From contig OZ024743.1 in NCBI GenBank assembly GCA_964016885.1, forward strand, positions 126,790,001 to 126,854,000: a stretch of DNA of 64,000 nt, in the 5' to 3' direction. Both the position numbers and the translations under genes were made by a program. The notes beneath the pieces are model-generated. The model made no database searches. It worked only from the letters and a program-made list of their open reading frames with translations, and had not been told where the DNA came from. This DNA is from Eledone cirrhosa (Eukaryota). Positions 41,958 through 42,476 of the stretch are shown in pieces. Position 1 is the stretch's first letter, and the number at the start of each line of letters is the position of its first letter.

Positions 41958-42476
41958 AAAACTTTTTCTTATTTGCTAAACCTTGATTATATATGTTCTG
42001 GCTCGTTAATTTATTAACCTGCCATAGAACCACATTGGCATACGGTTGGATAATACATGTGTCCCTATATGCATTTTGCATGTAGGGAGACATACTTTAT
42101 TATTATTAATCTCCCCTAGTCGAGATAACATTTTGGTCGTTTTAACTGCTGCTATTTCTAGTGGCAGTAGATTGACATTTCCGCCTCTGCCTTCTATCTT
42201 TACACGCGGCACTAGACAAAATTGTTTCTTCATCATACACTCTCATCTCGGGAACAGTTCTGTATGGCGCCAGTTCGTGATTTGAACTCGGGAATTTGAT
42301 ATTCTCCGAGCTAAAAGAACCCTCTGACGAAAGTCTTTCTTTTCAATGGATTTCCGCATGGATTATCCATTTATTTTGAGACTTAAAACCGTACGGTAAG
42401 GGTAATTACAGCAGGTACAGTGAGCTTTTTAAAATTTATTTTCAAACTTTTTCTTATTTGCTAAACCTTGATTATA
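41958..42476 (+). mobile_element. Retrozyme-like ~486 nt unit with terminal direct repeat, in (TA)n
   Basis: aaactttttcttatttgctaaaccttgattata at both ends; internal hammerhead; no meaningful ORF. Confidence 0.7.
42319..42403 (+). ncRNA. Type I hammerhead ribozyme with one core substitution (G12A)
   Basis: accct-CTGACGA-aagtct..agactt-AAAA-cc-gtac-gg-TA-agggt. Confidence 0.75.

What the first reader, a model, noticed from the sequence alone, without database searches (positions are those of the whole stretch)
41958..42476. Candidate retrozyme: ~486 nt non-coding unit with terminal redundancy and a hammerhead
Seen: a ~33 nt direct repeat bounds a non-coding unit in (TA)n. The unit holds a fully paired hammerhead (5 bp stem I, extended stem II, CC-GTAC-GG stem III) with only G12 changed. 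The redundancy does not coincide with the cleavage site. Inference: reverse transcription ran slightly more than once around a circular RNA, or through a tandem transcript, as proposed for non-LTR retrozymes. It may be an uncatalogued circular RNA family in this lineage.
Basis: partly seen in the sequence, partly recalled or inferred. Interest (0 to 1): 0.75.

Follow-up and report, generated by a model that had tools for sequence, protein, structure and literature searches.

The report
Penelope-spread hammerhead retrozyme copy
This is one likely inactive copy of an abundant 485-base non-coding repeat with a hammerhead (self-cutting RNA) motif, which borrowed Penelope-type retrotransposon enzymes likely pasted into TA repeats, probably from an RNA circle, so it is a new family of an already known kind of animal mobile element.

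Summary
The period is 485 nt and the repeat 36 nt. The hammerhead pairs fully, and its G12A change is a defect of this copy: G in 204 of 217 spans from related loci. The unit belongs to a dispersed family (1,584 exact matches to its 3' motif). The 'terminal redundancy' is no fixed feature. 3' ends sit at two sites, about 74-81 and 185-195 nt past the cut site, both running into (TA)n, and 5' ends are random. Inverted two-armed insertions use one site per arm (37 of 40). Protein-coding Penelope-like elements (PLEs) in the same genome end the same way, which points to PLE enzymes as the mobiliser; no sequence-related helper was found. A circular template is favoured but not shown. Arms cross up to three cut sites with no excess stops, and repeats within an arm share subfamily variants. 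Against it, some long arms are later DNA duplications and no molecule-specific marks were found. The scan has already noted this kind of element, with other unit lengths, many times in this genome. Verdict: a new member of the known non-LTR retrozymes / non-autonomous PLEs.

The parts
41917..41958 (.). 5' flanking (TA)n target
   Evidence: sequence
41959..42479 (+). The insertion: one 5'-truncated arm of 1.07 units (period 485 nt), non-coding
41959..41994 (+). Upstream copy of the 36-nt overlap = start of a second pass, cut at a random 5' point
   Evidence: 5' ends of other arms are spread over the whole unit
42057..42093 (+). Predicted hairpin just before 3'-end site 2; one compensatory pair across subfamilies, also several broken pairs
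42098..42108 (+). 3'-end site 2 of the family (about 185-195 nt past the cut); internal in this copy; inferred second reverse-transcription start
   Evidence: 48 of 254 segments end here, 42 of 48 run into (TA)n, mostly on the inverted arm
42319..42403 (+). Type I hammerhead: stem I 5 bp, long stem II, 2-bp stem III with palindromic loop; predicted cut between 42398 and 42399
   Evidence: pair counts over 217 spans
42385..42385 (+). G12 position, A in this copy (private decay)
   Evidence: G in 204, A in 8 of 217 spans; G in 97 of the 100 places listed
42444..42479 (+). Downstream copy of the overlap; it ends at 3'-end site 1 (42472-42479, 74-81 nt past the cut), where the unit's own TA run matches the target; inferred main reverse-transcription start
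   Evidence: 174 of 254 segments end here, 165 of 174 run into (TA)n
42473..42598 (.). 3' flanking (TA)n target

Best explanation
This is a 5'-truncated, likely inactive copy of a dispersed, non-coding 485-nt hammerhead repeat whose insertions end at two fixed sites in (TA)n, and which was likely copied into the genome by the reverse transcriptase and GIY-YIG nuclease of Penelope-like elements, likely from a circular RNA monomer. Steps: (1, inferred) a source with two intact hammerheads is transcribed, cut twice and ligated into a ~485-nt circle. (2, inferred from the ends) the PLE nuclease cuts (TA)n, and the DNA end primes inside the RNA at a short UA-rich stretch 74-81 nt past the cut site. 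(3, inferred) the enzyme runs back through the sealed cut site and stops at a random point, which here gave 1.07 units and hence the 'terminal redundancy'. (4, inferred) in some events the other DNA end primes at a second site about 110 nt further 3', giving an inverted second arm. Shown: the family, the two 3' sites, random 5' ends, the one-site-per-arm pairing, the same anatomy in coding PLEs of this genome, and the conserved hammerhead core. Odds: PLE mobilisation about 0.9; a circle as the main template about 0.55.
For: Family: 2,811 first-look candidates; 273 exact matches to a hammerhead motif and 1,584 to the 3' motif, with 0 for each reversed control. 3' ends: of 254 segments from 201 fetched loci, 174 are at site 1 and 48 at site 2, with (TA)n after 165 of 174 and 42 of 48. 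Inverted pairs: 37 of the 40 with both ends at defined sites (56 rows in all) are site 1 + site 2; non-inverted arms are 127 at site 1 and 4 at site 2. Coding PLEs: RT + GIY-YIG frames of 938 and 1,096 aa (RT confirmed in both and GIY-YIG in one). They also end in (TA)n at two distances from a hammerhead-like motif: one family at about +77 (4 ends) or +143-145 (6 ends), another at about +109-126 or +157-183, and inverted pairs such as L156, L162, L163 and L169 use one end each. Literature: internal RT start 111-118 nt into the ORF with the cut at +26, and two start sites that define the 'tail' (PMC11167929); an inverted arm with the tail at one end only (PMC8557442). For a sealed or uncut template: 12 of 258 arms reaching the cut site stop within 8 nt of it (4.7%), the same as the median position (4.7%). 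Arms of 2.3-2.5 units with evenly diverged passes exist; L255 and L258 cross three cut sites. Passes within an arm differ at 155 of 2,042 diagnostic sites (7.6%) against 45% for random loci; both passes carry the minor allele at 607 sites and are discordant at 98; none of 25 recurrent sites shows upstream/downstream polarity in 69 arms. Hammerhead kept: core intact in 169 of 217 spans, with paired changes in stem I (C-G 114, U-A 87) and stem II (A-U 103, G-C 75); 14 arms hold two intact cores.
Against: No RNA was observed. No helper PLE with sequence similarity was found: none in 50 PLE loci, and the best candidate's pLTR aligns no better than shuffles (99 and 86 of 200). Arms are short (median about 300 nt in the 50-arm tail sample) and the stop rate rises after about 400 nt, whereas endless rolling would give long arrays. 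Four of the longest arms (L253, L256, L257, L260) have two passes closer to each other than to the third, the mark of DNA-level duplication after insertion, which can rebuild multimers without a circle. Locus-private variants present in every pass: 7 against 6.6 expected by coincidence (87 arms, 4 rare-subfamily arms left out). No A-to-G strand excess (ratio 1.02, p 0.87). Inverted arms agree as closely as tandem passes (7.2%), so agreement does not single out one molecule. The covariation counts are sequences, not events, and amount to a few subfamily-level changes; part of the sample was chosen by a hammerhead pattern, which inflates core conservation. No strong whole-unit consensus fold (alifold -1.6). 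In vitro, PLE insertion did not need hammerhead cleavage and used unprocessed RNA (PMC11167929).
Confidence: 0.75

Rival explanations
1. Non-autonomous PLE copied from uncut linear multimer transcripts. Multi-unit sources arise by template jumps or local duplication, and no circle takes part.
For: PLE protein uses unprocessed RNA in vitro (PMC11167929). Post-insertion duplications are visible in 4 long arms. Arms are short and the stop rate rises with length. The lack of stops at the cut site fits uncut RNA as well. Local amplification by unequal crossover is proposed in bioRxiv 10.64898/2026.07.22.740005.
Against: No pile-up of 5' ends at a start site. No fixed upstream versus downstream haplotype, which a linear two-unit master would leave. 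Subfamily variants sit in both passes. The core and stems are kept across 13 sequence clusters, which this model does not require.
Confidence: 0.3
2. The unit is only the pLTR or 3' end of a coding PLE, and the tandem look is the usual partial tandem.
For: Same tail, inversion and (TA)n anatomy as coding PLEs here.
Against: The period is 483-487 nt with no ORF between repeats. None of 50 PLE loci, covering five GIY-YIG clusters, has a matching pLTR. Only 150 of 10,597 GIY-YIG candidates were scored and 50 fetched, so an ancestral donor is not excluded.
Confidence: 0.05
3. Target-site duplication or chance repeat around an unrelated insert, or a satellite spread only at the DNA level.
For: DNA-level duplication occurs at some loci.
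Against: The 36 nt are internal unit sequence in every longer copy. Dispersed copies have fixed 3' and random 5' ends in (TA)n.
Confidence: 0.02
4. Copied from self-cleaved linear monomers, with the enzyme jumping from the 5' end to another 3' end.
For: A few arms begin within 3 nt of the cut (L112, L246, L220).
Against: No excess of stops at the cut (12 of 258). The junction is almost invariant (first stem I pair intact in 211 of 217 spans), with no sign of imprecise jumps.
Confidence: 0.08

Closest known systems
Metazoan non-LTR retrozymes (Cervera and de la Pena 2020, PMC7229834, parts 2-4 of 6 read; Li, Clavereau and Pollet 2026, bioRxiv 10.64898/2026.07.22.740005, parts 1-3 of 5 read)
   Same: Non-coding, AT-rich repeat with one type I hammerhead per unit, short palindromic stem III, head-to-tail copies and co-occurring PLEs; PLE mobilisation and circular templates are proposed there.
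   Different: The unit is longer than the 170-400 nt given for invertebrates in the 2020 paper but inside the 51-972 bp of the 2026 preprint. Most copies are 0.2-1.5 units, not long arrays. No circular RNA is shown here. No target duplication can be resolved in (TA)n. The parts read do not describe insertion ends, two start sites or paired inverted arms for retrozymes.
EN+ Penelope-like elements (Craig et al. 2021, PMC8557442, passages; Frangieh et al. 2024, PMC11167929, parts 1-2 of 4; Cervera and de la Pena 2014, PMC4209133, passages)
   Same: 5' truncation, partial tandems, an inverted 5' arm, a tail at one end only, microsatellite targets, a hammerhead upstream of an internal RT start (74-81 nt here; 85-92 nt in the anole element, by subtraction from that paper's numbers). 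The 2014 paper already proposes circular RNA for more-than-unit copies.
   Different: No ORF. The distance between the two ends is about 110 nt, not 30-40. Site 1 has a 7-nt UA run that matches the (TA)n target, whereas the anole enzyme starts at a site not homologous to the cut DNA.
Non-autonomous Chlamys elements such as MRC1 (PMC8557442, passage)
   Same: Non-coding PLE dependants with pLTRs and head-to-tail copies.
   Different: Those share 3' sequence with their helper and mostly lack canonical hammerheads; here the hammerhead is canonical and no helper with shared sequence was found.

Membership tests
Type I hammerhead ribozyme | Conserved core (C3 U4 G5 A6 G8 A9 G12 A13 A14 A15.1 U16.1 H17; numbering recalled) with stems I-III | tested here: met
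   Intact in 169 of 217 family spans; this copy fails at G12 only
Type I hammerhead ribozyme | Compensatory pair changes in the stems | tested here: met
   Stem I C-G 114 / U-A 87; stem II A-U 103 / G-C 75 and G-C 184 / A-U 12; few independent events, no shuffle control
Type I hammerhead ribozyme | Match to an Rfam hammerhead model | tested here: not met
   No hammerhead family at E<=10 in this copy or an intact trimer; the long stem II is the likely reason (inference)
Type I hammerhead ribozyme | Self-cleavage | not testable with these tools
   Only 1 of 9 predicted frog dimers cleaved in vitro, so activity cannot be assumed
Non-LTR retrozyme | Non-coding repeat unit of a few hundred nt with one type I hammerhead; no LTR structure | tested here: met
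Non-LTR retrozyme | At least two consecutive complete hammerheads in some copies | tested here: met
   26 arms with two complete motifs, 14 with two intact cores; a three-core arm. Not met by this copy.
Non-LTR retrozyme | Expression as linear and circular monomer RNA | not testable with these tools
   Needs RNA from the organism
Non-LTR retrozyme | Highly self-paired monomer | tested here: inconclusive
   Circular-fold z -5.7 for this copy, -2.3 to -3.8 for three others; weak consensus fold over 89 units; local hairpins partly conserved
Non-LTR retrozyme | Target-site duplication larger than 4 bp, when present | tested here: inconclusive
   Cannot be resolved inside (TA)n
Non-autonomous Penelope-like element | Fixed 3' end, random 5' truncation, partial tandem | tested here: met
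Non-autonomous Penelope-like element | Inverted 5' arm with a tail at one end only | tested here: met
   37 of 40 pairs are site 1 + site 2
Non-autonomous Penelope-like element | Coding PLE with the same target and end pattern in the genome | tested here: met
Non-autonomous Penelope-like element | Sequence similarity to the helper's pLTR or 3' end | tested here: inconclusive
   None in 50 PLE loci out of 10,597 candidates; the sample is too small to exclude one

The most novel reading that the evidence does not exclude
A dimeric Penelope-type enzyme loads on one hammerhead-made RNA circle and primes both ends of a (TA)n break at two different internal sites, a short one for one strand and a long one for the other. 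Coding PLEs and non-coding retrozymes would follow the same two-site rule, and genomic arms would be a fossil record of rolling reverse transcription on circular RNA. This would explain the PLE 'tail' and inverted arm and confirm the proposed retrozyme cycle.
Probability: 0.35. Interest if true: 0.65.

Novelty: new member of a known kind. Interest (0 to 1): 0.33.

Why it matters
The copy itself is ordinary decay. The family gives genomic support for two steps that the papers read propose but do not show from insertion ends: that PLE enzymes move animal retrozymes, and that the template passes through the ribozyme site without a break. The one-site-per-arm rule, seen here in both the non-coding family and coding PLEs, is a precise prediction for the existing in vitro PLE system. 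Younger families with long arrays, noted elsewhere in this genome, would be better material than this 1-4% diverged one.

Tried and rejected
Rfam: no hammerhead hit; the microRNA-type hits come from simple repeats. Sequencing runs: no RNA holder listed; three DNA-type or unknown runs of one study, not used. A Pfam accession recalled as a PLE marker is not in the library. The idea that the two inverted arms come from different RNA haplotypes was rejected: 7.2% against 7.6%. An early impression of a hard length cap near 800 nt was rejected: arms of 900-1,523 nt exist. Molecule-specific shared variants as proof of one circle: null. Similarity to the P1 PLE pLTR: shuffle level. A linear two-unit master: no polarity. 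A direct count of all two-hammerhead copies in the genome was not obtained, so that number is open. Papers: five searches listed no description of this family; the main text of an octopus repeat annotation (PMC13282606, passages) has no mention of ribozymes or retrozymes. No supplements or repeat libraries were seen, and the family could be catalogued there under another name. The host group was not tested here; 'cephalopod' comes from unchecked earlier notes and my own guess from composition.

Full report
Observation. Between two (TA)n tracts (41917-41958, 42473-42598) lies a 521-nt insert whose first 36 nt recur at its end: 41959-41994 = 42444-42479, period 485. A type I hammerhead spans 42319-42403, with a 5-bp stem I, a 7-bp stem II extended by a distal hairpin and a 2-bp stem III with a palindromic loop. 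Only G12 (42385) is changed, and the predicted cut follows 42398. The motif folds at z -3.3 and the unit at z -7.2. The longest ATG frame is 76 aa. Rfam does not recognise the motif, even in an intact trimer. The core numbering is recalled.

The family. The unit is repetitive: 2,811 first-look candidates, of which 40 were scored; 273 exact matches to a hammerhead motif; 1,584 to a 25-nt 3' motif; reversed controls 0. By hand, the 100 places listed fall into about 77 loci, which suggests roughly 1,200 loci. I mapped 201 fetched loci (185 after duplicates) on a circular reference. That reference carries one surplus base, so printed positions above 46 are 1 too high; distances in this report are corrected. 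Copies fall into 13 clusters, 1.3-4.4% from their cluster majority and up to about 23% from this copy, so activity is old to middle-aged. G12 is G in 204 of 217 spans; 169 have an intact core; stems I and II show paired changes; 14 arms hold two intact cores. Part of the sample was selected by a hammerhead pattern.

What the redundancy is. Of 254 segments, 174 end at site 1 (74-81 nt past the cut) and 48 at site 2 (about 185-195 nt), nearly always into (TA)n (165 of 174; 42 of 48); 32 end elsewhere. 5' ends are spread over the whole unit. The window copy is therefore a 5'-truncated arm of 1.07 units, and its overlap length is chance. The overlap is internal sequence in every longer copy, so it is not a target duplication. 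Fifty-six rows of inverted 5'-to-5' arm pairs were found (some loci twice); 40 have both ends at defined sites, and 37 of these pair site 1 with site 2. Non-inverted arms end at site 1 (127) far more often than at site 2 (4).

Who moves it. The genome is rich in GIY-YIG frames (10,597 candidates, 150 scored), some in long RT-containing frames of 938 and 1,096 aa. These coding PLEs also end in (TA)n at two distances from a hammerhead-like motif: about +77 or +143-145 in one family, about +109-126 or +157-183 in another, with one end per arm in inverted pairs. The papers give the frame. PLE insertions are 5'-truncated partial tandems with an inverted arm and a tail at one end (PMC8557442, passages). 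The anole PLE starts reverse transcription internally at two sites downstream of its hammerhead and does not need cleavage in vitro (PMC11167929, parts 1-2 of 4). Retrozymes are proposed to be PLE dependants (PMC7229834, parts 2-4 of 6; bioRxiv 10.64898/2026.07.22.740005, parts 1-3 of 5). No helper with shared sequence turned up in 50 PLE loci, so the link is by anatomy, not by descent. The unit is not the pLTR of a coding element, since repeats follow each other at 483-487 nt.

Circle or not. For: arms do not stop at the cut site more than elsewhere (12 of 258, 4.7% against a median of 4.7%), which excludes cleaved linear monomers as the main template. Some arms of 2.3-2.5 units have evenly diverged passes, and two of them cross three cut sites. 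Passes in an arm share subfamily alleles (7.6% mismatch against 45%) with no upstream/downstream polarity, and the core is kept across clusters. A circle as template for more-than-unit copies was proposed in PMC4209133 (passages). Against: arms are short and the stop rate rises after about 400 nt. Four of the longest arms look duplicated after insertion. Private variants shared by all passes are at chance level (7 against 6.6), and there is no editing-type strand bias. Inverted arms agree as well as tandem passes, and the whole-unit consensus fold is weak. I put a circle at about 0.55 and uncut linear multimers at about 0.3.

This copy. It has one hammerhead, with G12A, so it cannot release a monomer; it is likely a dead end.

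Novelty. Five paper searches listed no description of this family; supplements and repeat libraries were not seen. The scan's own index has no look-alike of this sequence, but holds many notes on the same kind of element with units of 310, 318, 422, 466-468, 516, 518-601 and 595 nt in this genome, several with the same two-ended anatomy. Those are unchecked notes; I read them after reaching this view, and they supplied the editing test. Verdict: a real feature, a new member of the non-LTR retrozymes / non-autonomous PLEs, interest 0.33. The boldest reading not excluded, twin priming at two sites on one RNA circle, has a probability of about 0.35 and would deserve about 0.65.

Noticed in passing
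window 44644-48075: Likely short PLE with two frames on + (RT-like 335 aa, weak match to a PLE protein at E 6e-4; then a 220-aa frame that looks GIY-YIG-like by eye), flanked by inverted hammerhead-bearing ends at 44681-44730 (-) and 47849-47898 (+) that stop at two different distances from the motif. Possibly Hydra-type (untested).
   Followed up: partly
window 62887-63400: Inverted pair of hammerhead-bearing arms, 83% like the 47.8-kb end, again with one short and one long end in (TA)n; similar sequence in 22 of 270 fetched loci.
   Followed up: partly
window 52079-53955 (-): Broken PLE, 25-39% identical at protein level to the intact RT + GIY-YIG elements.
   Followed up: partly
window 41433-41931: Near-perfect palindrome (172-nt arms, 98%) abutting the finding in the same (TA)n; no match in 270 loci; both arms end alike, so perhaps a MITE.
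   Followed up: partly
window 42599-42815: Two further short repeat ends in the same TA tract, found in 44 and 12 of 270 fetched loci; the tract is a pile-up of TA-targeting elements.
   Followed up: partly
L152:6711-7350: Distant relative of the unit (58% over 690 columns, E 1e-9) with its own intact hammerhead, more than one unit long, ending at the equivalent of site 2.
   Followed up: partly
L151 and related loci: [quoted passage not shown]
   Followed up: partly
window 16460-23511: Two LINE-type remnants (RVT_1; endonuclease, RT and zf-RVT pieces).
   Followed up: no
window 51402-51430 (-) and 26661-26699 (-): Further matches to a loose hammerhead descriptor; pairing not checked.
   Followed up: no
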